A DNA stretch of 64,000 bases, taken from the IMG/VR virus record IMGVR_UViG_3300005662_000021, positions 1 to 64,000 of that record, one strand, 5' to 3'. This DNA is from a virus (taxonomy: Duplodnaviria; Caudoviricetes). The notes beneath the pieces are model-generated. The model saw only the letters and a program-made list of their open reading frames with translations. It was not told the origin of the DNA and searched no databases. Positions 42,207-55,461 of this stretch are shown here, one piece after another (within the stretch, counting starts at the first letter, position 1; each line of letters begins with the position of its first letter). The position numbers and the translations under genes were made by a program.

Positions 42207-42215
42207 CAACAATAA

Positions 42216-42289: not shown

Positions 42290-42305
42290 CAAATTTTAAT
42301 AAATT

Positions 42306-42533
42306 ATGGTTAATGTAAAAATTGGTGAATTTAAGGTTGGTGATAAGTTGTTTATTGATTATAGTGAAGATAATCCAAACAATAAACACATCGAAATTAG
42401 AGCAATTGTGGATATGGAGGTGGTGATTTATTTGGATGACAAAAATAACTACCATATGGAACCAATTCATTACTTCAATGTGTTATGTAGATGTCACTCA
42501 CTTAAAAAAATAACAAATGAAACGGACAATTAG
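42306..42533 (+). CDS. hypothetical protein
   Basis: 75 aa ORF. Confidence 0.55.
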   Translation: MVNVKIGEFKVGDKLFIDYSEDNPNNKHIEIRAIVDMEVVIYLDDKNNYHMEPIHYFNVLCRCHSLKKITNETDN

Positions 42534-42672
42534 AAAACCAAGTTCTGCAAAGTTTTATGAAATGCTTAGAAATAAGTACAACAACTACATTAAGAAACAA
42601 GAAAATGAAATGGAAGATTCTACAAATTAGATTCCAACCTAAAAAATTTAATTAACAATATATAATTTTCAT

Positions 42673-43182
42673 ATGAAAAAAGAGTTTTTATTTAATGATA
42701 ACATTATTGATTTTGAATTTGACGAAGTAATAGATAAAAAAATAAATGTTAAGGTATTTCACTATTTCAATAATAATCTTTTATTTGAAAAAATTGATGA
42801 TAGAATAATTTGTCTTAAAGGTATTGGTAAATTATTCTTTCAAGAAGGATTCCCAATTTCATTATCTATTTCAAAATTAAAAGAACAAGGGGTTGAGGTT
42901 AGTATATTACACGTTGCTGATGAATGTTTAAAAAATGGGTGGTCACCAATCACAACATATAATAAATTAAAATCTGACTTTGAAGAAGATATTGACAAAG
43001 AAAATCATTATGATTTACATTTATTAAAAAAATTTTGTGAATCAAATTATGAAGACCAAAGAGAAATGATATTTGAATATCTGTTTAAATGCAAAACTGA
43101 TGATGTTAGAAATAAAAAAAATGAAAATCCAATAAATTGGTTACAATCACTTGTAACTAGTGGGGCTAAAAATAAACTTTAA
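42673..43182 (+). CDS. hypothetical protein
   Basis: 169 aa ORF. Confidence 0.65.
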   Translation: MKKEFLFNDNIIDFEFDEVIDKKINVKVFHYFNNNLLFEKIDDRIICLKGIGKLFFQEGFPISLSISKLKEQGVEVSILHVADECLKNGWSPITTYNKLKSDFEEDIDKENHYDLHLLKKFCESNYEDQREMIFEYLFKCKTDDVRNKKNENPINWLQSLVTSGAKNKL

Positions 43183-43191
43183 CAAGAAAAT

Positions 43192-43266
43192 GACCCTGTA
43201 GCTTAGCTGGTTTAAAGCACAATACTTTTAATATTGGGAGCGGGAGTTCGAATCTCCCCAGGGTCA
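43192..43266 (+). tRNA. tRNA-Lys(UUU)
   Basis: GACCCTG/CAGGGTC; CAATA-CTTTTAA-TATTG. Confidence 0.92.
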
Positions 43267-43275
43267 CAACACAAT

Positions 43276-43360
43276 GTCCTTATGGTGTAATGGTTAAACA
43301 TCCCACTCTTACAAAGTGGAGACGAGAAGTATAATCCTAGTTCGAATCTAGGTAAGGACA
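43276..43360 (+). tRNA. tRNA-Val(UAC) with enlarged variable region
   Basis: GTCCTTA/TAAGGAC; CCACT-CTTACAA-AGTGG; ~16-nt variable region. Confidence 0.85.
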
Positions 43361-43388
43361 CATTAAATGATTTTTAAAATATAAAAAA

Positions 43389-43637
43389 ATGAAAAAAATA
43401 TTATTTCTTGGTTTGATATCTGTATTATTCCTTAGTTGCAAAAGAGAAGCTAAAGAAGAAATAGAAACAGATAATACTAATTATAGTGTTGAACTTCTAT
43501 TTGAAGTTGATGGATGTAAAGTCTATCGATTTTTGGATGGTGAATTCCATTATTTCACAACTTGTAATGGTTCTGTAACTCATAAAAGTAATGAAAAAAA
43601 CTCCAAAGATTTGGAAATACAAACCGTTGTGAAATAA
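43389..43637 (+). CDS. lipoprotein (DUF4884-like)
   Basis: lipobox LFLSC; YSVELLFEVDGCKVYRF. Confidence 0.6.
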   Translation: MKKILFLGLISVLFLSCKREAKEEIETDNTNYSVELLFEVDGCKVYRFLDGEFHYFTTCNGSVTHKSNEKNSKDLEIQTVVK

Positions 43638-43643
43638 AGATTT

Positions 43644-43705
43644 GAACAATTAAGGGACCGAGCCTGCCTACAATTTCGGTGTGAGGTGCTAGTAGGTAAT
43701 TGTTC
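43644..43705 (+). ncRNA. candidate pseudoknotted small RNA
   Basis: GAACAATTA/TAATTGTTC; ACCGA/TCGGT hairpin; loop CCTAC complementary to 3' GTAGG. Confidence 0.45.
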
Positions 43706-43718
43706 TTTATGTTATAAT

Positions 43719-43852
43719 AGTACCACGAGGCATCCCATAAGAACTGCTCACTGCTGTGGTCTTGTTGCTTGTAAACGAATAGCCCAAGGTATAAGTTAGG
43801 AAGCTTAACTCAACCTATCCCCCACTGACGAGTGGGGTGAAGTTGGGGGATT
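43719..43852 (+). ncRNA. unclassified structured RNA
   Basis: ACCAC/GTGGT, AGTTA/TAACT, CCCCACT/AGTGGGG hairpins; GC-rich intergenic. Confidence 0.4.
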
Positions 43853-43868
43853 AAAAAAGAAACAATAG

Positions 43869-43954
43869 GGTCGGGTGGCCGAGTTGGTTAAGGCACTAGT
43901 CTGCAAAACTATCGAATGAAAAATTCATCGTGGGTTCAAATCCCTCCCCGACCT
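43869..43954 (+). tRNA. tRNA-Cys(GCA) with long variable arm
   Basis: GGTCGGG/CCCGACC-U73; loop CTGCAAA; GAAT/ATTC variable stem. Confidence 0.88.
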
Positions 43955-44015
43955 CAAAAAAAAAGTTCAGTTAGTTATTTTTACTCATTTTGTTGATATT
44001 TATATATATATATAT

Positions 44016-44765
44016 ATGAAATGGAATGATAACGATATTGAAAAATTAATTGATTTGGTTAATCAAGGATTAAAACCAAATAGTATTGCTGAAATTTTTG
44101 GGGTTACGTATAAAACGATAACTAATAAAATGTTTAGATTGGGTTTACAAGTAGTTTATACAACAAATAAAACTTGTAAAAATTGTGGAAATACATTTGA
44201 GTCTTATTTAAGTAAAAACAAATTATTTTGTAATTCATCTTGTTCAACAACGTTTAATAATAAAAAACGTAAACATAGTGAAGAAACTAAAAATAAAATA
44301 TCAAAAACATTAAAAAGTAAACCAACTAAACCAACTAAGCCTACTAAACCTAAAGTTGGTAAAATAAAAACTTGTAGGATTTGTAATAATAAAGTTATTG
44401 AAAAGTACAAAATTGTTTGTACTAATTGTAGGTTAGAGTATTATCAATATTATAGACCTTCTTGTACTTTTCAATTTAATGTAAAGGATTATCCACAAGA
44501 ATTTGATTTAATTTTAATTGAACAATATGGATGGTATTCTCCAACAAATAAAAAAAATAATTTGGTTGGAGTCACAAAAGACCATAAATATTCAGTGATG
44601 GAAGGTTATAGAAATAAAATAGACCCTAATATTTTATCTCATCCAGCAAATTGTGAATTACTTTTATTTTCGGATAATTCGTCTAAAAATGGTAAATCGT
44701 CTTTAACATTAACCGAATTGCTTGAAAATATTGAAATTTGGAATAAGAAATACGGAAATATTTAA
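44016..44765 (+). mobile_element. free-standing putative homing endonuclease gene
   Basis: N-terminal HTH, CxxC zinc ribbons, NUMOD3-like KHSEETKNKIS, DHKYS...HPANC; between tRNA-Cys and tRNA-Trp. Confidence 0.6.
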
Positions 44766-44793
44766 AAGTTATTATTATCTTTACAAAACATAT

Positions 44794-44868
44794 GGGAATG
44801 TAGCTCAATTGGATTAGAGTAGTGGATTCCAGACCCACAGGTTATAGGTTCGAGTCCTATCGTTCTCG
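44794..44868 (+). tRNA. tRNA-Trp(CCA)
   Basis: GGGAATG/CGTTCTC; loop TTCCAGA. Confidence 0.88.
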
Positions 44869-44899
44869 CAAATTTTATCAACAATTTAAAATACTTATT

Positions 44900-45211
44900 A
44901 TGGTAAGGGATTACATAATCGAAACATTAAAGAAAATCAAGGAACACGATGAGAAGGTGCACAAGTTGTATGATATGGGAGTTGATTTACTTGACTTTAA
45001 CAATACCACGTCCCAACTTGAGAAGTCTATTCCGACCATCCTCAGAAAAGAAAAAGACGAATCATACGGATGGATACAGGATTTAGTTGGTTGGTGGTTG
45101 TATGAAAATATTGAAAAAAAGATTTGGTATGATGAAATTGAAGTTAATGTTGAAAGTGTCGAAGATTTTACCGACTATTTATTAAAAGAGTACAGCTCTA
45201 TTAATGAATAA
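44900..45211 (+). CDS. hypothetical protein
   Basis: start reassigned to MVRDYIIE (upstream ORF part overlaps tRNA-Trp). Confidence 0.6.
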   Translation: MVRDYIIETLKKIKEHDEKVHKLYDMGVDLLDFNNTTSQLEKSIPTILRKEKDESYGWIQDLVGWWLYENIEKKIWYDEIEVNVESVEDFTDYLLKEYSSINE

Positions 45212-45222
45212 TCGTTTAAACT

Positions 45223-46560
45223 ATGAAAATTTTCTATTCAATTTTACTAATCTTTTTACCTTTTTTAATTTATTCCCAAGGTCTTATAATAAATGAAATA
45301 TCAAATGGTGATTCTGGAAACAGAGAATATTTTGAGTTAGTTGTTATTGGCTCGACTTCAAACCCTACAATAAGTGTAGACTTGGGTGGATGGATAATAG
45401 ATGATAATAATGGAGATTTTGAAGGTGTTTTAAGTGGGGTTGGTACAGCTCAAGGTCATATAAGAATTAAACCAGGATGTTTATCTAATGTAAAACCTGG
45501 GTCAATTATTTTAATTTATAATAGTGCTGATGTTAATCCCACTTTTGGGATAACTCCAGACCCATTAGATTTTGATGGTGATTGTGTTTATATTTTACCA
45601 ATAAGTGATTTGTGTTTGGATAATACATCAAATTTACCAACAACAACAAATCCATTGTATACTCCAGTTAGTTATACCGCAACAAGAATTTGGGATAGGA
45701 TTGGATTTAGAAATGATGGTGATGCCGCACAAGTTAGAAGTCCAAATGGTTTATTTTTTCACGGATTTTCATACGGGGATGTGTCAACCCCATTTCCCAC
45801 TTTTCCATTTGGTGGTTCATCTTTTAATATTATAACAGGGAGTGGATTACAAAGAAATTATTTTTTCAATAGTGGTAGTTTTGGAGCAAAAGTCAATTTC
45901 AGTAGAGGTGTTGCCCCAACAAATGAAACTCCAGGTCAACCAAATAATGATGCCAATAGATATTTTATAAATTCATTAAGAATTGGGACTTATAATTATT
46001 CAAACTTATTAGACCCAATTAATATTGGTTCATCAACAACATTGGTTGATTGTGGGACAATATTACCAATTGGTATAATTGAATTTAAGGGAACAAAAAT
46101 TAACGATAATGTCAATCTTCAATGGACGCTTGATAATGTCACAGAAGTCAATTATATTGAGTTGGAGAAGAGTTCAAATGGTTATGATTTCTATCCCATT
46201 TCTGAGATTTATCCTTATGATTTAACAATGAATTATATTGATGATTTGACTTACTCAGAAAATTATTATAGACTTAAAATTGTTGAATATAGTGGTGATA
46301 TAACTTATAGTAATATTATTAATATCTCAAATAAAATTAACGATGATGTATTAATATATCCCAATCCAACAAAAGATATATTGAATATAAAAACAATCAA
46401 AAATATTAATAGAATTTCACTATTTAATGAACTTGGGGTTGAATTTGTTATTGAGAATCCGACATCTCAAATTGATTTATCCTCATTGTCAAAAGGAATT
46501 TATATAGTTAAGATTAATATTGATGAGAATACAATTATTAAAAAAATAATATTAATTTAA
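45223..46560 (+). CDS. secreted protein with T9SS type A C-terminal sorting domain
   Basis: signal peptide; LIINE lamin-tail-like start; LPIGIIEFKG...YYRLK; IYPNPT...LSKGIYIVKI. Confidence 0.8.
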   Translation: MKIFYSILLIFLPFLIYSQGLIINEISNGDSGNREYFELVVIGSTSNPTISVDLGGWIIDDNNGDFEGVLSGVGTAQGHIRIKPGCLSNVKPGSIILIYNSADVNPTFGITPDPLDFDGDCVYILPISDLCLDNTSNLPTTTNPLYTPVSYTATRIWDRIGFRNDGDAAQVRSPNGLFFHGFSYGDVSTPFPTFPFGGSSFNIITGSGLQRNYFFNSGSFGAKVNFSRGVAPTNETPGQPNNDANRYFINSLRIGTYNYSNLLDPINIGSSTTLVDCGTILPIGIIEFKGTKINDNVNLQWTLDNVTEVNYIELEKSSNGYDFYPISEIYPYDLTMNYIDDLTYSENYYRLKIVEYSGDITYSNIINISNKINDDVLIYPNPTKDILNIKTIKNINRISLFNELGVEFVIENPTSQIDLSSLSKGIYIVKINIDENTIIKKIILI

Positions 46561-47202
46561 ATGGCTTATATTGAAGGTAATTTTTTCCCCTTAAAGGTAT
46601 ATGTTCGAAATGAATATCTATATCAAAATAAGAAGGGATTTGGTGAATTTACTGAGGGTGTTATAATATCAATTAGATGTTTACCAGGACAAGCGGCACT
46701 ATTCCAAGTATTATTTAATAATGGTGTTATGAGAGATAAACTTCCATCTCACGCATTATTAACTGAACCAAAATTACCTGATGTTGATTTACCATTCCAT
46801 TATCTTCAAATATGGAATTGTTTTTCATATAATTTCTCGGTACATCATTTAAGTTATGTCTATGATACCAGAGTTTCAGTCTTTATGAAAGATAAGAAAT
46901 GGTATGATGGAAGTTATTATGCCACAATAAATTGGGGTTCTAGTGATTTGAATAGTGATTTTACCTTGGCTGAAGACCCAATGGAACATAAGTCACACCA
47001 TATATTACTACTAGATAATGGCCAGATTGCCCTACAACCGAATAATAGGATAAGATGGTCAGAACCATCCTTTGTCACAAAATCTTTCCCTGAGAGACCT
47101 GATTATTTGGTTAATAAGGATTATTATAATTGTGAGGGTTATGATAAGTGGGCGACCGAGGATTCTGAGTATATGTTTTATGATACAAATGAAAATAAAT
47201 AA
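46561..47202 (+). CDS. conserved phage hypothetical protein
   Basis: YVRNEYLY, HKSHHILLLDNGQIALQPNNRI. Confidence 0.7.
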   Translation: MAYIEGNFFPLKVYVRNEYLYQNKKGFGEFTEGVIISIRCLPGQAALFQVLFNNGVMRDKLPSHALLTEPKLPDVDLPFHYLQIWNCFSYNFSVHHLSYVYDTRVSVFMKDKKWYDGSYYATINWGSSDLNSDFTLAEDPMEHKSHHILLLDNGQIALQPNNRIRWSEPSFVTKSFPERPDYLVNKDYYNCEGYDKWATEDSEYMFYDTNENK

Positions 47203-47211
47203 TTTTTAAAT

Positions 47212-47727
47212 ATGACACCAATGGTAATTGTAAATTTCTATAAACCCTATGATACAACTTGGGAACTACTCCAACTAATGGCATTGGATAAAATTGCCGA
47301 ACACGAAAAGGAAACAAGTGAAGTTGAATTTGGAGATGTATCCGTTCAACAACAATTTGATGATTATCGTGCAGCTTGTTTTCAAGGGTTAAAAACATTT
47401 ATAATGCAAGTTTTAAATGAATGGGGAACTGAAAACATCTTGGTGTTTAATGATAAATTCTATAAGAAATTTGAACATATGGAAATGGAGGGTAGATTAA
47501 AAACTTATACAACTCCCAATGTTTTCAAAACATCAAAAGAATTATTCAAATGTTTAAAGAAAGAAAAGTTTCAGTTAGAACCAGATGATTTTGATTTCAT
47601 TCACGAAACTTTTTCAAGTGCTGATGATGTTGTGTGTAATATATTCGCATTTGAATATGAATTAAAAGAAATTGATGATGATAAGGATTGGTTAGATGAG
47701 AACGGATTTGGTGATATTTTAGAATAA
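47212..47727 (+). CDS. hypothetical protein
   Basis: 171 aa ORF. Confidence 0.65.
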   Translation: MTPMVIVNFYKPYDTTWELLQLMALDKIAEHEKETSEVEFGDVSVQQQFDDYRAACFQGLKTFIMQVLNEWGTENILVFNDKFYKKFEHMEMEGRLKTYTTPNVFKTSKELFKCLKKEKFQLEPDDFDFIHETFSSADDVVCNIFAFEYELKEIDDDKDWLDENGFGDILE

Positions 47728-47742
47728 AAAAAAGATAATAAT

Positions 47743-47955
47743 ATGAAAACAATAGGCGTATTAGAAGCATTGAAAGATGAAACAATTAAAAAAGGAGATA
47801 AAATAATTATTGAACTTATTGTTGATGAAATAGATATTGAAAGTATGTACCCATTATCTGCATTTTGTTTTAATAAATATGATGAAATATCAAAAACTAA
47901 TTATTTTAAATTGTCATGGAGTACTAAAATAAAAATAAAAGACAATAATAGTTAA
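47743..47955 (+). CDS. hypothetical protein
   Basis: 70 aa ORF. Confidence 0.5.
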   Translation: MKTIGVLEALKDETIKKGDKIIIELIVDEIDIESMYPLSAFCFNKYDEISKTNYFKLSWSTKIKIKDNNS

Positions 47956-48028
47956 TTTTTTTTGTAACCAACTTGACCTTTTGTATTATATCGTTATATT
48001 TAATAAAAAAATAGTAAAAACTTCACAA

Positions 48029-48100
48029 ATGAAACACAATCTCTATATGGACTTAACGACTGGAGCTGAGGGTAGAAATCCTCGGATGGAGATGGTATAA
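48029..48100 (+). CDS. 23-aa leader peptide candidate
   Basis: MKHNLYMDLTTGAEGRNPRMEMV followed by a terminator. Confidence 0.4.
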   Translation: MKHNLYMDLTTGAEGRNPRMEMV

Positions 48101-48127
48101 TATAAGGTTTTAATTGTTAATAAAATC

Positions 48128-48164
48128 AAATCCATCTTCCTAAAAAAAAGATGGATTTTTTTTT
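48128..48164 (+). terminator. terminator/attenuator
   Basis: AAATCCATCTT...AAGATGGATTT plus T-run. Confidence 0.75.
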
Positions 48165-48173
48165 GTCACAGAG

Positions 48174-48204
48174 TTTGGGAATTAGAAATGGTTTTGTAAC
48201 TTTG
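48174..48204 (+). promoter_or_regulatory. Bacteroidota-type sigma70 promoter
   Basis: TTTG-N19-TAACTTTG. Confidence 0.7.
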
Positions 48205-48208
48205 TGGT

Positions 48209-48688
48209 ATGAGAAAACAAACACCATACATATCCTCTTCGGTCGCCATAAAAGGGATTAATGATTCAGGACTTGCAAAGTCTGAAACAAACGATTGTGT
48301 AGTTAGAGCTTTTGCTTCAGCTTTCAACGTGACTTATGATTTTGCTCACAAAAAGGTTGCTGAAATATTTGGAAGAAAAAACGGACAAGGAACTTATTGT
48401 TTTAGTTTGGTGATGAGGTCTTTGGAAAGTAAAGGAATTAGTGTTAATAGAAAAAAAATTAAAACAATAAGTAAAGATGTGAACCTTTCTTATTGGATTA
48501 AGGTTAAAGGTGTAAACACTTTGAGAAGTATGACAACTGCAAAGTTTTTGGAGGATTATCCCAAAGGAACTTACATAGTCACAGTCAAAGGTCACGCTTT
48601 TACAATTAAAGATGGGGTGGTGATTGGAAATCCTGATGATGCAACAAAGAGAAAAAAAACTATCTATGGAGCTTGGAAAATTGGATAA
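48209..48688 (+). CDS. conserved phage hypothetical protein
   Basis: NDCVVRAFASAF...KGHAFTIKDG. Confidence 0.7.
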   Translation: MRKQTPYISSSVAIKGINDSGLAKSETNDCVVRAFASAFNVTYDFAHKKVAEIFGRKNGQGTYCFSLVMRSLESKGISVNRKKIKTISKDVNLSYWIKVKGVNTLRSMTTAKFLEDYPKGTYIVTVKGHAFTIKDGVVIGNPDDATKRKKTIYGAWKIG

Positions 48689-48737
48689 GATTACCTACTT
48701 TTGTGATGTTCATTGAAATTGAGGGAAAAATATTAAA

Positions 48738-48811
48738 GGGCTATTGGTGTAGTGGTCGAACATGCCACCCTGTCACGGTGGAGAACAGGGGTTCAAATCC
48801 CCTATAGCTCG
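48738..48811 (+). tRNA. tRNA-Asp(GUC)
   Basis: GGGCTAT/ATAGCTC; CCACC-CTGTCAC-GGTGG. Confidence 0.92.
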
Positions 48812-48824
48812 CAATACTTTAATT

Positions 48825-48914
48825 AATCGGTTGGTGTAAGTGGAAATGAATACCACCTTGGGTAGCAACCTATTTTTAGAATGGGGGATGTAGGTTCGAA
48901 TCCTACACTGGTTA
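48825..48914 (+). ncRNA. tRNA-like RNA without a canonical anticodon loop
   Basis: AATCGGT/ACTGGTT acceptor, D-like arm, TGTAGG-TTCGAAT-CCTACA T arm. Confidence 0.6.
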
Positions 48915-49150
48915 AAAAAAGTTTTAAAAGTTGGAACTAAATGATATGAAGGTTGGTTTATAATAATGTAACTTAAAAAAATAGATTATGACAAACTTTA
49001 TGATAAATTTTATTATTCTTGCTATTTTTATAATGCTTTTGGGTTTTATTGGTAACTATATCATAAAAAAATATCCAGATTCTTGGGTAGCAAAATGGTG
49101 GGATGATATGACTGATATTGGTCATTGGTGGTAAATTAAAATAATATCTA

Positions 49151-49320
49151 TGTCACGAGATTAAGATGTGACTTACGTTCTAAGGAGTTTACTTATTGTC
49201 AATTAGGGCGGACGAAGGCAACATAAGTTATATTATGGTGACTTGATATTCACCATAACGAATACAAGATATCAAAAAGAGAAGTGGAGAATCACTTATT
49301 CAAAACTTCTCTTAATTTTT
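49151..49320 (+). ncRNA. unclassified multi-hairpin RNA
   Basis: GTCAC/GTGAC, ACTTAT/ATAAGT, TTATGGTGA/TCACCATAA (loop TTGATAT complementary to ATATCAA), AAGAGAAGT/ACTTCTCTT. Confidence 0.4.
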
Positions 49321-49404
49321 GCCTAGGTGGTGTAATGGTAGCCACGCAAGACTTAAAATCTTGTGACCAGTAAGGTCGTGCGGGTTCGAGTCCCGCCCTG
49401 GGTA
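49321..49404 (+). tRNA. tRNA-Leu(UAA)
   Basis: CAAGA-CTTAAAA-TCTTG; long variable arm. Confidence 0.92.
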
Positions 49405-49420
49405 CAAAAAAATAAAAAAC

Positions 49421-49609
49421 ATGATATATTTTAAAATTTACTTTACACTACTTCTTATCACAATCATAGTTGCTGGAGTTACTGGGTCGCTTATGAATAG
49501 CGATACTAAAAGAAGTGATTTATGGTTCAAGATTTCAAACACTTGTTGGATAGCAACATTAGTTATGGTTATTGCAGGCGTATTAACTTCTGTATGGATT
49601 CTACATTAG
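49421..49609 (+). CDS. small membrane protein
   Basis: two TM segments. Confidence 0.55.
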   Translation: MIYFKIYFTLLLITIIVAGVTGSLMNSDTKRSDLWFKISNTCWIATLVMVIAGVLTSVWILH

Positions 49610-49646
49610 AATCTTGTCGGGACTACAAAAAAAAGTTTAAAAAAGA

Positions 49647-49678
49647 TTTGGAATTAAGAAAATCAAATCGTAATTTTG
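49647..49678 (+). promoter_or_regulatory. Bacteroidota-type sigma70 promoter
   Basis: TTTG-N20-TAATTTTG directly upstream of shell S4. Confidence 0.75.
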
Positions 49679-49687
49679 TGAGACAAT

Positions 49688-49780
49688 AGTCTTGTGGCGG
49701 AATGGAAGACGCTCGCTTCAAGGTGCGGTTAGTCAACGAAATGTAAAGCTAACGTACAGGTTCGAATCCTGTCAGGACTA
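49688..49780 (+). ncRNA. tRNA-Leu-like shell S4 (possible Leu-CAA with 8-nt anticodon loop)
   Basis: AGTCTTG/CAGGACT-A; TCGC-TTCAAGGT-GCGG; GTTAGT/GCTAAC variable stem with 14-nt loop. Confidence 0.7.
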
Positions 49781-49784
49781 CAAA

Positions 49785-49888
49785 TGTGTTGTTCCTTTGA
49801 GAAAGGAAATATAAAGATGAGTGACATTACTTGAATTATGGAATAGTAACATAATCGTACACTACAACACAGAGGATTTCTCATCCTC
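49785..49888 (+). ncRNA. unclassified structured RNA
   Basis: TGTGTTGT/ACAACACA closing stem, TTCCTTT/AAAGGAA hairpin, then GAGGAT/ATCCTC hairpin. Confidence 0.4.
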
Positions 49889-49902
49889 AAATTTTTAAAA
49901 AC

Positions 49903-49975
49903 GCACCATTCGACAAGGGGTCTAAGTCACCTCCCTTTCACGGAGGAGTCACGGGTTCGAATCCCGTATGGTGTA
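49903..49975 (+). tRNA. tRNA-Glu(UUC)
   Basis: GCACCAT/ATGGTGT; CCTCC-CTTTCAC-GGAGG. Confidence 0.93.
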
Positions 49976-50027
49976 CAAATCTCAGAAGTAATTAATCTGG
50001 GGCTGAGAGGTTCGAAACTCACGGAAA

Positions 50028-50126
50028 TGATTATGGTGTAGGCGCACGGAAAGATAAAGTATGAGAATGGTAAGTACCCATTAAAGAAATTGACATCAGG
50101 ATTAAGGTTCGAATCCTTATTAATCA
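50028..50126 (+). ncRNA. tRNA-like RNA with insert in place of anticodon arm
   Basis: TGATTA/TAATCA, GTG/CAC D-like arm, TAAGG-TTCGAAT-CCTTA T arm. Confidence 0.5.
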
Positions 50127-50136
50127 ACAAACATTA

Positions 50137-50176
50137 TGTGTATAGGATTTTTGGGTTGTGTATAGGATTTTCGGGT
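50137..50176 (+). repeat. 20-bp tandem duplication
   Basis: TGTGTATAGGATTTT(T/C)GGGT x2 just before the HNH gene. Confidence 0.85.
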
Positions 50177-50197
50177 TTTTTGTGATATTTATATAAT

Positions 50198-50779
50198 ATG
50201 GAAGAATTAAATAGACATCAAAAAGCTGCATTGGTAAGTGGTATTAAGCGTAGACAGAAATCACTACAAGAATACTACGAAAATCCTAATATTTGTAGGT
50301 GTTGCAATAAACCAATTATGGTTGGTGAAAAACAAAAAGTTCGTGAGGTTAGAAGAAAAGTTTTTTGTGACCATAGTTGTTCTGCAACTTTTAATAATCA
50401 ACAAAGAGAAATTAAAGAACCGATTAAAAAAAATAAAGAACCAAGACCTAAAAAGGAAAATAAAGAATCTAAACCTAAAAAGGAAAAATTTGAATTTATT
50501 TTAGGTTTAACTAAAAAAGATTTGTTTGAAAAACACGAAATTTATTATAGATTTAGAGCAGTAATTAGGAAACATGCACATTATATTTTCAACAAACATC
50601 ATAAAGACCAAAAATGTAAGGTTTGTGGATATAATACTCACGTAGAAGTTTGTCATATAAAATCAGTTTCATCTTTCAGTGATGATACTCTAATAATTGA
50701 GATAAATTCTATAGATAATTTAGTTGGGTTATGCCCTAATCATCATTGGGAATTTGACAATGGTAAAATAAAATTATAA
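50198..50779 (+). mobile_element. free-standing HNH endonuclease gene
   Basis: CxxC ribbons; CKVCG...EVCHIK...NLVGLCPNHHWEFD. Confidence 0.8.
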
Positions 50780-50786
50780 CACATCA

Positions 50787-50872
50787 CGCAAGGTGGACGA
50801 GTGGTCAATGTCAGGGGTCTCATAAGCCTCTTCTGCGAAAGTGGAACTTCGGTTCGAATCCGAACTTTGCGT
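50787..50872 (+). tRNA. tRNA with CAU anticodon (Met or Ile2) and long variable arm
   Basis: CGCAAGG/CTTTGCG; GGGGT-CTCATAA-GCCTC; TTCTGC-GAAA-GTGGAA variable stem. Confidence 0.85.
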
Positions 50873-50885
50873 CAAATTATTAAAA

Positions 50886-50971
50886 GGGTGTCTATCCAAA
50901 TTGGTGAAGGAAGCTGTCTGTAAAACAGTTGCTATATGCTAAACTTGGGGGTTCGAATCCCTCGGCACCCA
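50886..50971 (+). tRNA. tRNA-Tyr(GUA)
   Basis: GGGTGTC/GGCACCC; loop CTGTAAA; long variable region. Confidence 0.9.
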
Positions 50972-50975
50972 CAAA

Positions 50976-51179
50976 AGAAATGAAACCTTACATAGGATGG
51001 ATTAGCACCATTGAAAGGGAACTTGGCTCTCATAGGGTCGCAACCTAAATCGAGAGTAATAATGACCCAAGTTGCTATGTAGGAGACCCTGCTCTACCGT
51101 GCACGGTATCAGGTGATGGGGAACAAACCATCATTAAACGTCTTGCCCATATAATGCTTATGGAAGGACTTTCATTTCT
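50976..51179 (+). ncRNA. unclassified ~200-nt multi-helix RNA
   Basis: AGAAATGAAA/TTTCATTTCT closing stem; ACATAG/CTATGT, AACTTGG/CCAAGTT, CTCTC/GAGAG, TACCGT/ACGGTA, TGATGG/CCATCA, CCATA/TATGG. Confidence 0.65.
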
Positions 51180-51184
51180 AATTT

Positions 51185-51259
51185 GCAGTAATAGCTCAAT
51201 GGTAGAGTTCTTGTCTTCCAAACAAGATGTTGCGAGTTCGAGTCTCGCTTACTGCTCCA
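51185..51259 (+). tRNA. tRNA-Gly(UCC)
   Basis: GCAGTAA/TTACTGC; loop CTTCCAA; encoded CCA. Confidence 0.93.
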
Positions 51260-51275
51260 AATTTAAAAATTCATT

Positions 51276-51488
51276 ATGAATCAGTCCGAATTTAGAAATC
51301 TTAGAACTGGGGATAAAATCCATATTAAGTCTCGTGATGGTTTATATACCTTCTTAAAAAAAGACTTTAGAACTGGTGAAATTCATATAACCTGTAAAAT
51401 ATGGCAATATGAAGAAAATCCGATAAGAGTAACAAGTTTTGATGATTTCAAATGTTTGGCTGGTGGTTTATGGAGAAAAATTATGTAA
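51276..51488 (+). CDS. hypothetical protein
   Basis: 70 aa ORF. Confidence 0.55.
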   Translation: MNQSEFRNLRTGDKIHIKSRDGLYTFLKKDFRTGEIHITCKIWQYEENPIRVTSFDDFKCLAGGLWRKIM

Positions 51489-51561
51489 TAGGAGAAAGTA
51501 AGTCGGTTGGTGTATAGCTTCCTTACGTCTAAAATTTAAGCACGATTACATAATACAAAAA

Positions 51562-51635
51562 GGGGGATTAGCTCAGCTGGCTAGAGCACTTGATTTGCAT
51601 TCAAGAGGTCATCGGTTCGACTCCGATATCCTCCA
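51562..51635 (+). tRNA. tRNA-Ala(UGC)
   Basis: GGGGGAT/ATCCTCC with G3-U70; loop TTTGCAT. Confidence 0.95.
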
Positions 51636-51667
51636 CTGAAAAATAAACATTGTTTTAAATTTAATTT

Positions 51668-52273
51668 ATGAAAAAATTTTTAGTATTTTTAGTGTTAGTA
51701 GTATTATTGACATCTTGGTCATATACACCCCCACGTAGGGTATTATTTATCGGTGATAGTTTAACCTGTGCAACTGGTGGGTGGCAAGACCAAGTTTCCA
51801 AACATTTTGGATATCAAAGGGTCAATTTATCTAAAGGTGGTGTTAGAACGGATTATATGAGGACAACCCTAAATGCTTGTTTTAAAAACGATTCAGCTTT
51901 TTCAAGTGTTTTTATCTATGGTGGATGTAATGATGCTTTCTCTTATGTAAATCTCCAAGGTGCGGTTAATAACATTCAAATGATGGTTGATAGTTGTAAT
52001 AGAAGAGGAATTGAACCAATTGTGATTGTGGGTTTTAATCCAGCTCAAGTAACAACAAAGACTGTGTATGATGCAGAAACAACCAAGAGATGTGTTGGAA
52101 GATACATTGAGTTTCAAAAGTTGATGGTTCACGAGAAAACTGGTTTAAAAAATTGTAAGATAATTCCAATGGACACTACAATGTTTTATAGTGATACTGG
52201 AGATGGAATTCATTTTGCTGCGAGTGGTCATAGAAAATTTGCTAATTGGGTTATAAATCATATGGAAAAATGA
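51668..52273 (+). CDS. SGNH/GDSL hydrolase, exported
   Basis: FIGDSLT, YGGCND, DGIHFAASGH; signal peptide. Confidence 0.85.
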   Translation: MKKFLVFLVLVVLLTSWSYTPPRRVLFIGDSLTCATGGWQDQVSKHFGYQRVNLSKGGVRTDYMRTTLNACFKNDSAFSSVFIYGGCNDAFSYVNLQGAVNNIQMMVDSCNRRGIEPIVIVGFNPAQVTTKTVYDAETTKRCVGRYIEFQKLMVHEKTGLKNCKIIPMDTTMFYSDTGDGIHFAASGHRKFANWVINHMEK

Positions 52274-52521
52274 AAAAAATATTTTGGTTTTCAATTTTAA
52301 TCACTATCTTTGTATCCTGTAACAAACACCCCACGATAGAACCTGGTGATATTGTTAAGAAGTGTGTAATTGATACGATGTATATTACAGAATCTCCATC
52401 CACAATTGAATTTGGTAAGAGATATAATTATAAAACCGATTGTGATGAATTGATAATGACAAGAAGAAGTGATGTGTATGAAATAGGGGATACAATAACC
52501 TACGTTTATAAAAGAAGATAA
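52270..52521 (+). CDS. lipoprotein
   Basis: lipobox IFVSC. Confidence 0.6.
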   Translation: MKKIFWFSILITIFVSCNKHPTIEPGDIVKKCVIDTMYITESPSTIEFGKRYNYKTDCDELIMTRRSDVYEIGDTITYVYKRR

Positions 52522-52527
52522 TTATTT

Positions 52528-52613
52528 GCCGTTTTCGCATAGTGGTTGATTGCACTGGATTTGTAACCCAGTTCCGTTAGGACACGTCAGTTCGAATCTG
52601 ACAAACGGCTCCA
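52528..52613 (+). tRNA. tRNA-Thr(UGU) with enlarged variable arm
   Basis: GCCGTTT/AAACGGC; loop TTTGTAA; TCC-GTTA-GGA variable stem; encoded CCA. Confidence 0.88.
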
Positions 52614-52617
52614 AAAA

Positions 52618-52830
52618 TCCCAATTGATGTAGATAGATTGGGTGGTCAGTAAGCCTAATTGCTCGTATTATGGTTAATATGTCACTATAACCAGGGTTGC
52701 CAAGACCAGATTGTTGGCAGTTTACACGAGATAGTCACTCGCATTTTCTACAAAAGGCAAAAAACACTAGTCCGTTTCTACAGGATGATGGGGCATTGAA
52801 AAAGTGTAGCTAACTTGGAAGATACCCCAA
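52618..52830 (+). ncRNA. unclassified ~210-nt structured RNA
   Basis: CCCAAT/ATTGGG, TGGTTA/TAACCA, TGCCAA/TTGGCA, CGAG/CTCG hairpins; loop TGTAGA complementary to two downstream TCTACA. Confidence 0.5.
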
Positions 52831-52918
52831 AATTTTTTAAAAAAAACATAGGAAAAAGTGAATAATTCAGGAAGAACAACTATCTTTGTCTTATTAATCA
52901 CTGAAACACATAATCACA

Positions 52919-53149
52919 ATGGCTAAAGAGAAAAAAACAATCCAAGTTGAGTTATTAAAAGAATTCGCAAACAACTATTTGGCTATTCCAATGGTTTCTA
53001 TCCAAGAAAAAATGGGCATTATCACAATGATTGAAAAGGTTCTACACGAATCTAATGCCTATAAAGGTTATATGTATTTAAAACTTGAAGAAAACAATAC
53101 CCCCCCAGCATTTGGTAGTGAGGGGTGGGCAACAAGAAAATATTTTTAA
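52919..53149 (+). CDS. hypothetical protein
   Basis: 76 aa ORF after TATCTTTG promoter element. Confidence 0.6.
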   Translation: MAKEKKTIQVELLKEFANNYLAIPMVSIQEKMGIITMIEKVLHESNAYKGYMYLKLEENNTPPAFGSEGWATRKYF

Positions 53150-53158
53150 TTTAAAACT

Positions 53159-53431
53159 TTGAATATTATGGCACTTATTTATGTAATCTTGGATAGTAAC
53201 GATAGAATTCCAATTCTAACTGCAAGTAGTATTGAAAAAGCTGAATTACTTTTGAATCAATATATGGGTGTTGAAGGTCCTATATTTGATGAAAGTGTTG
53301 AGTATATAGGTTTTGAACCATTTGATGACAGAGGTTATTATGAAATTTATGAAGGTGAATACAAATATAAGACAGAAGATGGTGAACAAAGATTCATAAG
53401 ATATTGTATGTCATTAGATAGTTTATATTAA
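53159..53431 (+). CDS. hypothetical protein
   Basis: 90 aa ORF. Confidence 0.55.
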   Translation: MNIMALIYVILDSNDRIPILTASSIEKAELLLNQYMGVEGPIFDESVEYIGFEPFDDRGYYEIYEGEYKYKTEDGEQRFIRYCMSLDSLY

Positions 53432-53436
53432 AATTT

Positions 53437-53582
53437 AGTCCTGTGGCGGAATGGAAGACGTTTGGGTGCAAATCCCATTAGCCCAAAGGGGGTTACAATA
53501 TATTGAGGTTCGATTCCTCTACTGGTACGGATGTGTCAGATTGGCGTTGTTGTAAATACAGGTTCGATTCCTGTCAGGACTA
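53437..53582 (+). ncRNA. tRNA-Leu-like shell S5 with a nested second T arm
   Basis: AGTCCTG/CAGGACT-A; TTTGGG/CCCAAA hairpin; TTACAATA/TGTTGTAA arm containing GAGG-TTCGATT-CCTC. Confidence 0.75.
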
Positions 53583-53590
53583 CAACATTT

Positions 53591-53674
53591 AAAACATCAA
53601 CTCGTAAAGAAAATGATGGCAAAGAGGTTCAGATAAAGGTAACGAGCTCCTACCTACCCTGAACAAGATGTTTT
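53591..53674 (+). ncRNA. candidate pseudoknotted small RNA
   Basis: AAAACATC/GATGTTTT, GTTCAG/CTGAAC, AGGTA/TACCT; loop ACGAG complementary to 5' CTCGT. Confidence 0.5.
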
Positions 53675-53683
53675 AATTAATAT

Positions 53684-53797
53684 GGTCAAGTGGCGGAATG
53701 GAAGACGCTAAGTAAGATGGTGTACGTTTGTCCCATAAGAAAGACCGATGCAACAGAAATGTGAAGGGTCGTATAGGTTCAAATCCTATCTTGACTA
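53684..53797 (+). ncRNA. tRNA-Leu-like shell S6
   Basis: GGTCAAG/CTTGACT-A; GCGGAATGGAAGACGC; TATAGG-TTCAAAT-CCTAT. Confidence 0.75.
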
Positions 53798-53800
53798 CAA

Positions 53801-53984
53801 TGAGTAAGAGATACTCAGCAGTCTTAGTAAAGACTTAAATCTATACTCGGTTCTAAAGGGGACATCGTGAACGCCCCTTTCATGGGAATAAAGGCAGGTA
53901 GCAGAGCCTCCCAGTAGCTTGACTAATTTTAAGAGGGATGACCCACAGGTTTATTGAAAGCAAGAAAACCGATATATCTACTCA
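53801..53984 (+). ncRNA. CAGCAA-family-like stem RNA copy 4 with multi-hairpin interior
   Basis: TGAGT/ACTCA and AGATA/TATCT stems followed by CTCAGCAG; four internal hairpins. Confidence 0.5.
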
Positions 53985-54010
53985 CTTGGAATCTCAGAGT
54001 GGGGAAATTT

Positions 54011-54098
54011 GCACCCATAGCTCAACTGGACAGAGCAACCGCCTTCTAAGCGGAAGGGTACCGAAAGGTCATTGTAGGTTCGAGTCCTACTGGGTGTA
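54011..54098 (+). tRNA. tRNA-Arg(UCU) with long variable arm
   Basis: GCACCCA/TGGGTGT; loop CTTCTAA; ACC-GAAA-GGT variable stem. Confidence 0.88.
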
Positions 54099-54164
54099 CT
54101 AAATTTTAATAGTAGCTATTGGTTTGAATTATTGATTTGTTTATATTTATAGTAAAATACTATT

Positions 54165-54770
54165 ATGGAACAAAACAAATTCAATAAAGAAGATTTAGAA
54201 AACTTAATTCACACACAAAATAAGAGTTATCGTGAAATTGGTAAATTGTACGGAGTTAGTGACACTTATATCAAAAAAATAGCAAGAAAACTTGGTATAG
54301 AGTTATTGGTTAGAAAAGTGTTTCCTAAAGATTTTACCCCAATAAATAAAGGTACTTGTGAAATACTTACTTGTAAAAATTGTCTAGCTACTTTTCAAAA
54401 AAAATATGGTAATCCGAAATTTTGTTGTCATAGTTGTAGTATTGATTATAGACAAAAAAATAAATACAATCATTATTTATTCAACCAACAAGAATTTACT
54501 AATTGTATTTCAGATATGAAATGGTTTAAGAAATATATTCTTGAAGAACAAAATGAAAAATGTAATATTTGTAATATTGATAATTTTTGGAATGGTAAAC
54601 CATTGAAGTTCATTTTAGACCATATTGATGGAAATGCCGCTAACAATACAAGAAATAATTTAAGACTGATTTGTCATAATTGTGATTCCCAATTGGACAC
54701 TTACAAATCAAAAAATAAAAATTCGGCTAGAAAAAATAGGTATTTTTTAAACTATAAAAACAAATTATAA
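54165..54770 (+). mobile_element. free-standing HNH endonuclease gene
   Basis: N-terminal HTH; CNIC...ILDHIDGNAANNTRNNLRLICHNCDSQ. Confidence 0.85.
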
Positions 54771-54966
54771 AATTATGAAATTTAAAGTAGGAGACAAAGT
54801 TTACAAACCGAAAGGTTACAAATTCCCAGGTATAGTTGTTGCGGTATTCCAAACCACATCTGGTGAAACGAGAATTGTTGCAGAATTAATTGATAATGGT
54901 ATGTTACACATATTTAGTGAGAGTCAGCTTGAACTTGATATAAACTAAATAAATCATTATTAAGAT

Positions 54967-55224
54967 ATGAATTCTAAATTAACACAAAATAAAACACCTC
55001 TTCAAAACGTTATAGATAAAGTTGAAAAACTTACTAGAGAAGCTAAACAGAATACAGAGGAAAAAAGAAAATTAAACATAGTTATTTCTTATCTTTGGGA
55101 CGAGTTACAAAATGAAAGATATGTAATGTCTGAAATTTATGAAAAAAGTAAAAAAGAAGATAATGAAGTAACTGGAAAAATGTGGATTGAAAAAAATTTT
55201 ATAGACTATCAAAAATTTTTATAA
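54967..55224 (+). CDS. hypothetical protein
   Basis: 85 aa ORF. Confidence 0.55.
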   Translation: MNSKLTQNKTPLQNVIDKVEKLTREAKQNTEEKRKLNIVISYLWDELQNERYVMSEIYEKSKKEDNEVTGKMWIEKNFIDYQKFL

Positions 55225-55357
55225 TGAAAGACGAAAATCAAGGTAAAACAAATGACCAAAGAGAATTTGCAATGTTTATGTTCTCTGGTTCAATGTTAGC
55301 ACTAATTGTATTAGGATTGGTTTATCTAATCAAATTTGGATTTAACCTTTAAAAAAG

Positions 55358-55441
55358 ACCTGAGTGGTGGAATGGTAGACACGTTTGGCTTAGACCCAAA
55401 TTCCGTTTAAAGGAGTAAGAGTTCGAATCTCTTCTTAGGTA
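55358..55441 (+). tRNA. tRNA-Leu(UAG)
   Basis: ACCTGAG/CTTAGGT; TTTGG-CTTAGAC-CCAAA. Confidence 0.9.
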
Positions 55442-55461
55442 CAAAAATTGGACATAAAAAA

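What the first reader, a model, noticed from the sequence alone, without database searches (positions are those of the whole stretch)
50976..51179. 204-nt multi-helix ncRNA wedged exactly between tRNA-Tyr and tRNA-Gly
Seen: a 10-bp closing stem, a long nested arm and three more hairpins, with ends 4-5 nt from the flanking tRNAs, so tRNA processing would release it as a discrete RNA. Established: large phage ncRNAs such as GOLLD and ROOL lie beside tRNAs, but this is much shorter and I cannot assign it.
Basis: partly seen in the sequence, partly recalled or inferred. Interest (0 to 1): 0.65.

Follow-up and report, generated by a model that had tools for sequence, protein, structure and literature searches.

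The report
Full-length freshwater-1 RNA in tRNA array
The stretch is a real, strongly conserved ~205-base folded RNA gene that uncultured lake phages carry once per genome, wedged against a tRNA gene; its middle third is already catalogued as the function-unknown "freshwater-1" motif, but the whole RNA is three times larger than that entry and its loops change in a way that suggests two or more copies stick together.

Summary
Observation confirmed. Window 50973-51184 (+), between tRNA-Tyr and tRNA-Gly, encodes a ten-helix, two-domain RNA.

It is not unassignable. Positions 51078-51139 match Rfam RF02979 (freshwater-1 RNA, 62 nt) over the full model at 68.7 bits, E 1e-15. That is just under the 72-bit gathering score.

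What I did not find described (no searched paper names freshwater-1; I could not read the Rfam entry text or the 2017 supplement):
- The family is really a ~200-215-nt RNA. I found 84 matches in viral contigs and 95 in metagenome and MAG contigs (132 distinct sequences). About 93% of cells are paired, against about 40% when partners are slid. 44-46 of 60 pairs show compensatory changes.
- There is exactly one copy in each of 18 phage records of 110-311 kb.
- A same-strand tRNA ends within a few nucleotides of the closing stem in 156 of 175 cases, with ten tRNA identities. A tRNA follows directly in 86 of 160.
- The P8 loop is a perfect 6-nt palindrome in all 117 distinct full-length sequences but switches between five palindromes. 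The P6 loop switches UAAUUA/UAGCUA. This signature was validated by cryo-EM for symmetric kissing loops in OLE and GOLLD.

Best reading: an RNA punctuated out of the tRNA transcript that acts in trans and probably self-associates. Its biological role is unknown.

The parts
50886..50972 (+). tRNA-Tyr (GUA), upstream neighbour; no encoded CCA (discriminator A50971 is followed by CAAAA)
50973..51184 (+). whole inter-tRNA RNA (full-length freshwater-1-family RNA); covariance model R1 matches 50973-51186 at 193 bits
50977..50988 (+). P1 5' strand (pairs with 51165-51178, with a 2-nt bulge at 51168-51169); closing stem
   Evidence: 13 of 14 pairs have compensatory changes in homologues
50989..50993 (+). 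P2 5' strand (UACAU), pairs with 51077-51081 (AUGUA); closes domain I
   Evidence: last pair switches G-C/U-A 33:27 and 30:39 with almost no exceptions
50996..51012 (+). P3 hairpin, 5 bp, loop AUUAGCA; contains a conserved G-U pair
51013..51019 (+). J3/4, near-invariant GAAAG
51020..51073 (+). P4-P5-P6 arm. The L6 loop is GUCGCAA here; other subgroups have the palindromes UAAUUA or UAGCUA. Conserved AUGACCC internal loop
51078..51139 (+). match to Rfam RF02979 freshwater-1 (model 1-62 of 62, 68.7 bits, gathering score 72). It covers the P2 3' strand, J2/7, P7, P8, P9 and the start of J9/10
51088..51113 (+). P7 (invariant CCUG/CAGG), CUC bulge and P8 hairpin
51099..51104 (+). L8 palindrome GUGCAC (centre of the 12-nt palindrome 51096-51107); proposed symmetric kissing loop
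   Evidence: criterion from PMC12286853
51114..51133 (+). P9 hairpin, 6 bp, loop GGAACAAA
   Evidence: all 6 pairs compensatory in the viral set, 5 of 6 in the metagenome set
51147..51163 (+). P10 hairpin, 5 bp, loop UAAUGCU (GUGAG in most relatives)
   Evidence: all 5 pairs compensatory; absent in L013 and L023
51185..51259 (+). tRNA-Gly (UCC), downstream neighbour; cleavage by RNase P at its 5' end would make the RNA's 3' end
   Evidence: the processing itself is inferred

Best explanation
Window 50973-51184 is a single-copy gene for a ~205-nt structured non-coding RNA of the freshwater-1 family. The Rfam model captures only its central 62 nt.

Shown:
- The RNA folds into ten helices in two domains. 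P1 closes the whole molecule. P2 closes domain I, which holds P3 and the P4-P5-P6 arm. Domain II holds P7/P8, P9 and P10.
- It occurs once per genome in large (110-311 kb) uncultured, mostly freshwater phages.
- It lies on the tRNA strand, almost always directly 3' of a tRNA.

Inferred:
- It is transcribed as part of the tRNA array. The enzymes that mature the flanking tRNAs cut it out: a 3'-end endonuclease after the upstream tRNA, and RNase P at the downstream tRNA. Where it is the last RNA gene of the array, a terminator sets its 3' end instead.
- The free RNA then acts in trans and pairs with further copies of itself through the palindromic L8 loop. In two of three subgroups L6 is palindromic as well. 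The result would be a homodimer or a higher oligomer, as in the RNA-only assemblies OLE, ROOL and GOLLD.

Not known: what the assembly does for the phage. A scaffold or decoy linked to tRNA or translation is only a guess.
For: Identity: RF02979 matches 51078-51139 at E 1e-15. Ten of 20 homologues pass Rfam's cut-off.

Extent: a search pattern taken only from domain I, outside the Rfam core, found 79 viral, 119 metagenome and 5 genome loci. Every true hit not cut by a contig end matches model R1 over positions 1-214 at 170-220 bits, apart from L171, which lacks domain II.

Structure: 92.4% and 93.2% of cells are paired, against 33-45% for slid partners. 46 and 44 of 60 pairs show compensatory changes; 0 of 500 shuffles reach this.

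Strand: a conserved G-U pair in P3 and a G-U wobble in the commonest P8 stem fit only + strand RNA.

Copy number: one per record in 18 of 18 records, 11 of them at least 90% complete.

Context: a same-strand tRNA ends at the element in 156 of 175 cases, with 10 identities, and one starts right after it in 86 of 160. About 8 of the 15 distinct exceptions show a T-arm and acceptor strand of tRNA-like genes that ARAGORN missed. Where no tRNA follows, the element is followed by a tRNA-like gene that ARAGORN missed, an intrinsic terminator, another structured stretch or an ORF.

Cassette behaviour: a contig from a marine RNA library joins tRNA-Tyr to tRNA-Gly with TTAA in place of the 209 nt.

Expression: contigs in three freshwater metatranscriptome studies cover the element, one of them identical over 50970-51122. 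None covers the flanking ORF sequence that was laid.

Self-association: L8 is a perfect Watson-Crick hexamer palindrome in 117 of 117 distinct full-length sequences, with five versions: GUGCAC, UGGCCA, GUCGAC, UGCGCA and AGCGCU. The adjacent central L6 nucleotides covary GC (72) / AU (44). Kretsch et al. 2025 used exactly this adjacent-nucleotide covariation to support the symmetric kissing loops seen by cryo-EM in OLE and GOLLD (PMC12286853).
Against: - No experiment shows the RNA, its ends or its oligomeric state.
- The RNA-library evidence rests on assembled contigs. These cannot show ends, strand or level, and could in principle contain DNA.
- The window's own subgroup has a non-palindromic L6 (UCGCAA), so any second contact is not universal.
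- With G-C closure, the L8 palindrome could also be drawn as a 4-nt loop.
- The parsimony counts of loop switches (22 and 24) come from a tree built on about 200 columns and are probably inflated.
- The Rfam score is below the family's gathering cut-off.
- Function remains a guess.
Confidence: 0.62

Rival explanations
1. It is a cis-acting element of the tRNA operon rather than a trans-acting RNA. It would act as a processing platform, insulator, stabiliser or terminator that serves the abutting tRNA or the end of the array.
For: A tRNA abuts the 5' end in about 90% of cases. The element is often the last RNA gene before a terminator or an ORF. In many relatives the P1 3' strand runs into a U-tract.
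Against: Only one of the 20-30 tRNAs per array has it, and the partner tRNA differs (10 identities). A related array works without it: tRNA-Tyr, TTAA, tRNA-Gly. Ten covarying helices and about 50 invariant unpaired nucleotides are far more than a processing signal needs. Palindromic loop covariation has no cis explanation.
Confidence: 0.1
2. It is the RNA subunit of a ribonucleoprotein. The palindromic loops would be binding sites for a dimeric protein, for example the Ro60-like DUF2828/DUF7788 protein encoded 12.5 kb upstream, making this a Y-RNA-like partner.
For: The ORF at 37027-38487 matches phrog_850 'RNA-binding protein' (E 8e-157) and Pfam DUF2828 plus DUF7788. It lies at the head of the tRNA array.
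Against: Only 2 of 30 RNA-bearing viral records have that protein. Those two are the window's closest relatives. None of the 11 near-complete genomes has it. No Y RNA or YrlA match appears in Rfam at E up to 10. A sequence-specific protein site would not drift between five unrelated hexamers. A different, unidentified and possibly host protein is not excluded.
Confidence: 0.1
3. It is a ribozyme. It would either cleave itself at its own 5' end to free the tRNA 3' end, or be a very reduced RNase-P-like tRNA-processing catalyst.
For: It has a tight junction with a tRNA 3' end, many invariant unpaired nucleotides and an invariant helix P7, and a size typical of ribozymes.
Against: No Rfam ribozyme or RNase P family matches at E up to 10. 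The junction nucleotides between tRNA and P1 are not conserved. The natural variant L171 lacks all of domain II yet keeps P1 and domain I.
Confidence: 0.05
4. The palindromes act at the DNA level, as a protein operator, restriction-type site or cruciform, and the RNA is monomeric.
For: All five L8 hexamers are classical type II restriction-site sequences (own knowledge). The whole of P8 is an inverted repeat in the DNA.
Against: The commonest P8 stem (GAUG/CGUC, 22 distinct sequences) contains a G-U wobble. That is a mismatch in DNA but a pair in RNA. A DNA-binding protein would not tolerate five different hexamers. The rest of the element evolves under RNA-pairing constraint.
Confidence: 0.06

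Closest known systems
freshwater-1 RNA motif (Rfam RF02979; from Weinberg et al. 2017, NAR 45:10811, PMC5737381)
   Same: Window 51078-51139 aligns to all 62 model positions with every highly conserved nucleotide: GACCCUGCUCU, GUGCAC, CAGG and the second hairpin. Homologues of the window RNA pass the family cut-off. The source is a freshwater metagenome.
   Different: The Rfam model is 62 nt with two hairpins. The conserved RNA is about 205 nt with ten helices. The model misses P1-P6 and P10, and it scores about half of the family, including this window, below its gathering score. I did not find the tRNA adjacency, the single copy per phage or the loop palindromes in any text I could search: 'freshwater-1' occurs in no main text of the library. 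I could not read the 2017 supplement or the Rfam page.
GOLLD and ROOL RNAs (large ornate RNAs of phage and prophage tRNA islands; cryo-EM nanocages, Kretsch et al. 2025, PMC12286853)
   Same: All are phage-borne, beside tRNAs, highly structured and without a known protein partner. All show covariation that keeps loops self-complementary, which marks symmetric intermolecular kissing loops.
   Different: They are 2.5 to 4 times larger and have no detectable sequence or model similarity (no Rfam hit at E up to 10). Oligomerisation is demonstrated for them and only inferred here.
Phage T4 species 1 and species 2 RNAs (rnaC, rnaD), small stable RNAs inside the T4 tRNA cluster (own knowledge, not checked here)
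   Same: They are stable non-tRNA RNAs encoded within a phage tRNA gene cluster and matured from the same precursors. Their function has been unknown for decades.
   Different: They are shorter (about 120-140 nt). A blastn search of 50,697 phage records with the window element found only tRNA-Gly matches.
HIV-1 dimerisation initiation site and other symmetric kissing loops (own knowledge; cited in PMC12286853)
   Same: A 6-nt self-complementary hairpin loop. One HIV-1 variant even uses GUGCAC. Alternative palindromes are exchanged in evolution.
   Different: The biology is unrelated. The HIV loop has flanking purines that this loop lacks.
manA and EGFOA motif RNAs under 200 nt that form RNA-only oligomers (bioRxiv 10.64898/2026.07.01.735769)
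   Same: They are short RNAs under 200 nt that turned out to self-assemble. From my own knowledge, they come from the same bioinformatic motif surveys of metagenomes.
   Different: They are different families. Freshwater-1 is not among the RNAs studied there.
YrlA / bacterial and phage Y RNAs with Ro60 (Rsr)
   Same: A structured RNA of about 100-200 nt closed by a 5'/3' stem, with tRNA-related context. A Ro-like DUF2828 gene lies in this window.
   Different: There is no co-occurrence with the Ro-like gene (2 of 30), no tRNA-like domain and no Rfam match.

Membership tests
Rfam RF02979 freshwater-1 RNA | Covariance-model score at or above the curated gathering score (72 bits) | tested here: not met
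   68.7 bits, E 9.8e-16, model 1-62 of 62, no truncation. The window's subgroup (L001, L010, L018, L022) is also below the cut-off.
Rfam RF02979 freshwater-1 RNA | Two adjacent stem-loops (the first with an internal bulge), with conserved nucleotides before, between and after them | tested here: met
   The cmscan alignment shows all pairs standard and all upper-case consensus nucleotides present.
Rfam RF02979 freshwater-1 RNA | Homology to sequences that do pass the family threshold | tested here: met
   L007, L002, L025, L014, L029, L003, L008, L023, L082 and L048 score 73-86 bits for RF02979. They align with the window over the whole ~205 nt under R1 at 170-220 bits.
Rfam RF02979 freshwater-1 RNA | Aquatic, mainly freshwater, metagenomic origin; no classified organism | tested here: met
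   The DNA holders are freshwater metagenomes, with a few estuary or marine ones. Among 185,579 species genomes there are only two true hits, both on MAG contigs beside tRNAs. No GenBank phage matches.
GOLLD / ROOL | Match to the Rfam models; size of about 500-800 nt | tested here: not met
   No such hit at E up to 10 in 50700-51400. The element is about 205 nt.
GOLLD / ROOL | Location in phage tRNA islands | tested here: met
GOLLD / ROOL / OLE (RNA-only homo-oligomers) | Symmetric intermolecular kissing loops, seen as covariation between adjacent or self-complementary loop nucleotides | tested here: met
   L8: five palindromic hexamers, 117 of 117 distinct sequences. L6 centre: GC 72 / AU 44 / other 1. 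This is a sequence signature only; assembly itself is not testable with these tools.
Y RNA / YrlA with Ro60 | Co-occurrence with a Ro60/TROVE-like gene | tested here: not met
   The DUF2828/DUF7788 protein is present in 2 of 30 RNA-bearing records and 0 of 11 near-complete genomes.
Y RNA / YrlA with Ro60 | Match to the Rfam Y RNA or YrlA models | tested here: not met
   No hit at E up to 10.
T4-type stable RNAs of tRNA clusters (rnaC/rnaD) | Sequence similarity to the T4 RNAs | tested here: not met
   blastn (word 11) of 50700-51500 against 50,697 phage records matched only tRNA-Gly.
T4-type stable RNAs of tRNA clusters (rnaC/rnaD) | Maturation from the tRNA precursor by tRNA-processing nucleases | not testable with these tools
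   Only context is available: spacers of 5 and 6 nt in the window, and abutting tRNAs in 156 of 175 and 86 of 160 homologues.

The most novel reading that the evidence does not exclude
The full-length freshwater-1 RNA is a self-assembling RNA. Copies join through the symmetric L8 kissing loop, and in most lineages through a second symmetric L6 contact on a different two-fold axis. With two such contacts it could build tetramers, rings or chains rather than a simple dimer. That would make it a compact (~205-nt) counterpart of the GOLLD and ROOL RNA-only assemblies of phage tRNA islands. It would point to a shared, still unknown role of oligomeric RNAs that phages express together with their tRNAs.
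Probability: 0.4. Interest if true: 0.75.

Novelty: new member of a known kind. Interest (0 to 1): 0.55.

Why it matters
Freshwater-1 has been in Rfam since the 2017 motif survey as a 62-nt motif, and I found no function or organism reported for it.

This work gives it four things:
- A genetic address: one copy per genome, in the tRNA arrays of large freshwater phages.
- Its true size and fold.
- A plausible maturation route.
- A testable physical property, self-association through covarying palindromic loops.

The RNA is small enough for easy in-vitro transcription, native gels and cryo-EM. It could therefore be a tractable model for why phages pair tRNA islands with ornate, oligomerising RNAs such as GOLLD and ROOL.

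The work also shows that the Rfam model under-annotates the family by about half. A rebuilt ~205-nt model would fix that.

Tried and rejected
1. Y-RNA-like partner of the DUF2828/DUF7788 protein at 37027-38487 (phrog_850 'RNA-binding protein'). Rejected for lack of co-occurrence: 2 of 30 records, 0 of 11 near-complete genomes. The protein has no sequence link to solved Ro60 structures and no NCBIfam hit.

2. RNase P, other ribozymes, riboswitches, tmRNA, 6S, GOLLD and ROOL: no Rfam match at E up to 10 apart from freshwater-1 and tRNAs.

3. Homologues in cultured or deposited phages: blastn found none.

4. Whole genome of the window: not held.

5. Cellular genomes: the domain-I pattern hit five contigs, three of them chance matches (Chryseobacterium twice, an Archaeoglobaceae MAG). 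Two viral loci, L042 and L051, were also chance matches. None of these is recognised by R1.

6. Pseudoknots: a mutual-information scan of 117 distinct sequences gave no convincing long-range Watson-Crick pair beyond the ten helices. There were hints only: 51018 with 51075 (81% Watson-Crick), and 50995 covarying with 51074 as A/A or G/G.

7. An own promoter or terminator inside the spacer: none by the sigma-70 and terminator scans. These are not enriched over shuffles and may not suit the host.

8. Literature: 'freshwater-1' occurs in no searchable main text. The supplement of the 2017 paper is not held.

9. The RNA-library contigs cannot give ends or levels. The start of one contig at 50970 is not taken as a 5' end. 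Parts of the laid stretch without cover are not used as evidence of absence.

Full report
**What is there.** The window carries a phage-type array of 24 tRNA genes, all on the + strand, at 39095-55442. tRNA-Tyr ends at 50971/2 and tRNA-Gly starts at 51185. The 212 nt between them fold on the + strand to -65.5 kcal/mol. The z-score is -4.3 against dinucleotide shuffles, and -2.95 on the opposite strand.

**Known family.** Rfam's gathering thresholds report only tRNAs in the window. In E-value mode, positions 51078-51139 match RF02979, 'freshwater-1 RNA', over the complete 62-position model. The score is 68.7 bits against a gathering score of 72, with E 9.8e-16, and every pair and every conserved nucleotide is in place. 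The RNA is therefore assignable, but the catalogued motif covers less than a third of it.

**Homologues and true extent.** An exact-pattern scan for the core found 39 IMG/VR contigs. In nearly all of them a tRNA ended about 105-110 nt before the core, and often another began about 95-100 nt after it. The tRNA identities differed between contigs. The whole ~200 nt aligned, with visible compensatory changes.

I wrote a ten-helix structure and built the covariance model R1, with 214 positions and 60 pairs. To avoid circularity I then searched with a pattern taken only from domain I, outside the Rfam core. It returned:
- 79 viral loci;
- 5 loci among the genomes of 185,579 species.

R1 matched over model positions 1-214 at 170-220 bits wherever the contig end allowed. 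There were 84 matches in the viral set and 95 in the metagenome set, which included the two MAG contigs. The exception among uncut hits is L171, described under natural variants below. The few pattern hits that R1 rejects are chance matches. Of the 119 metagenome loci, L189-L209 were not searched with R1. Domain I and the Rfam core are therefore parts of one RNA.

Ten of 20 members pass Rfam's own cut-off at 73-86 bits. The window's subgroup does not.

**Structure.** On the viral set, 92.4% of cells form standard pairs, against 33-44% when partners are slid. 46 of 60 pairs show changes on both sides, and 0 of 500 shuffles reach the observed covariation. The metagenome set, whose sequences did not go into the model, gives 93.2%, 44 of 60 and 0 of 500.

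Helices in window coordinates:

| Helix | Position | Note |
|---|---|---|
| P1 | 50977-50988 with 51165-51178 | closing stem |
| P2 | 50989-50993 with 51077-51081 | last pair switches G-C/U-A about 1:1 |
| P3 | 50996-51012 | hairpin |
| P4-P5-P6 | 51020-51073 | long arm |
| P7 | 51088-51091 with 51110-51113 | invariant |
| P8 | 51095-51108 | hairpin inside P7 |
| P9 | 51114-51133 | hairpin |
| P10 | 51147-51163 | hairpin |

P6 is poorly aligned between subgroups (64% paired), but each subgroup has its own hairpin there. A conserved G-U pair in P3 and G-U wobbles in P8 fix the functional strand as + RNA.

**Genomic behaviour.** R1 finds exactly one copy in each of 18 phage records. Eleven of these are at least 90% complete and measure 110-311 kb. 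The window also has one copy.

A same-strand tRNA ends at the element in 156 of 175 cases. Ten identities occur, with Leu-UAA, Gly-UCC, Tyr, Ala and Glu the most frequent. A tRNA begins right after it in 86 of 160. About 8 of the 15 distinct 'no upstream tRNA' cases show a T-arm plus acceptor strand of insert-bearing tRNA-like genes that ARAGORN misses. Without a downstream tRNA, the element is followed by a tRNA-like gene that ARAGORN missed, an intrinsic terminator, another structured stretch or an ORF.

Among cellular genomes there are only two true hits. Both are on MAG contigs beside tRNAs and are probably binned phage DNA. No deposited phage matches. The window's closest relatives are 128- and 141-kb fragments estimated at 43-48% complete, so this is a jumbo phage of roughly 300 kb.

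**Expression and cassette nature.** DNA holders are mainly freshwater metagenomes. In RNA libraries of three freshwater studies, assembled contigs cover the element. One 154-nt contig is identical to 50970-51122. One 272-nt contig runs from inside tRNA-Tyr to 51169. None covers the flanking ORF sequence that I laid. These are contigs, so they show presence only, not ends, strand or level.

A contig from a marine RNA library joins tRNA-Tyr to tRNA-Gly with TTAA in place of the 209 nt. A relative therefore lacks the element precisely. No sigma-70-type promoter or terminator lies inside 50774-51291, which is weak evidence.

**Loop palindromes.** The P8 loop carries a perfect Watson-Crick hexamer palindrome in all 117 distinct full-length sequences. 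The hexamer differs between sequences: GUGCAC, UGGCCA, GUCGAC, UGCGCA (within GUGCGCAC) and AGCGCU. Moving between these needs paired changes that preserve self-complementarity.

In P6, the two central, adjacent loop nucleotides covary GC (72) / AU (44), with one exception, giving UAGCUA or UAAUUA. The window's subgroup has UCGCAA, which keeps four of six self-pairs. No other loop is palindromic.

Adjacent nucleotides cannot pair within one chain. Kretsch et al. 2025 used this very signature to support the symmetric kissing loops they saw by cryo-EM in OLE and GOLLD, for example GGCC switching to GAUC or AGCU (PMC12286853). I therefore infer that the RNA pairs with copies of itself.

A parsimony count on a tree built without those columns gives 22 (L8) and 24 (L6) switches. 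I regard these as upper-end figures, because the tree rests on about 200 columns. The safe minimum is 4 and 2.

**Mechanism.**
- Shown: fold, strand, family, copy number and tRNA adjacency.
- Inferred from context: co-transcription with the array, and release by tRNA 3'-end processing upstream and by RNase P, or termination, downstream.
- Inferred from loop covariation: homo-oligomerisation.
- Unknown: the biological role.

**Rejected partner.** A Ro60-like DUF2828/DUF7788 protein is encoded at 37027-38487. It does not travel with the RNA: 2 of 30 records have it, and none of the 11 near-complete genomes.

**Natural variants.** These show that the RNA is modular:
- L171 keeps P1 and domain I but lacks all of domain II.
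- L013 and L023 lack P10, and L037 has a ~60-nt insert in P6.

**Novelty.** The instance is a new, sub-threshold member of a known family. I could not find the full-length architecture, the tRNA-punctuated single-copy context or the oligomerisation signature in the literature I could search.

Noticed in passing
window 37027-38487 (+): A 486-aa protein with Pfam DUF2828 plus DUF7788 and phrog_850 'RNA-binding protein' (E 8e-157), directly ahead of the tRNA array. It does not co-occur with the freshwater-1 RNA, so its RNA partner, if it has one, is something else. The insert-bearing tRNA-like genes of this array are candidates.
   Followed up: partly
window 40446-40568, 49688-49781, 53437-53582, 53684-53797 (+): tRNA-model hits of 93-146 nt with large inserts, one called by ARAGORN with a 4-nt anticodon. 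The same kind of insert-bearing tRNA-like gene abuts the freshwater-1 RNA in several other phages (L071, L183, L173, L152, L119, L142).
   Followed up: no
window 43276-43361, 43869-43955, 48824-48915, 50787-50873, 52528-52613, 54011-54099 (+): tRNA-Val, Cys, Gln, Met, Thr and Arg genes of 86-92 nt. That is unusually long for these identities and suggests long variable arms or inserts.
   Followed up: no
window 45223-46560 (+): A phage ORF with a C-terminal Por_Secre_tail (type IX secretion sorting) domain. This hints at a Bacteroidota host. One true genome hit of the RNA lies in a Chitinophagaceae MAG (L090).
   Followed up: no
window 22438-24306 (+) and 18207-19985 (+): A full-length Hsp70/DnaK homologue (Pfam E 4e-256) and a GAF-PAS histidine-kinase-like protein, both encoded by the phage.
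   Followed up: no
window 50198-50779 (+): An HNH endonuclease ORF (HNH_2) inside the tRNA array, two tRNAs upstream of the RNA. It is probably a homing endonuclease. A GDSL lipase-like ORF lies at 51668-52273.
   Followed up: no
L171:3018-3145 (-): A 128-nt natural variant that keeps P1 and domain I (P2-P6) but lacks the whole Rfam freshwater-1 core (P7-P10). Domain I can exist on its own.
   Followed up: partly
L009 and L039, downstream of the element: In these close relatives of the window, the tRNA-Gly that follows the RNA appears to be interrupted. A 5' fragment comes first, then about 60 nt, then a complete tRNA-Gly.
   Followed up: no
L003, L005, L016, L176 and L052, L084, L155, L156, downstream of the element: Further conserved, hairpin-rich non-coding stretches follow the freshwater-1 RNA in some phages, for example a conserved ...CCGUAAGAUCUGC... 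module. These may be other structured RNAs of the array.
   Followed up: no
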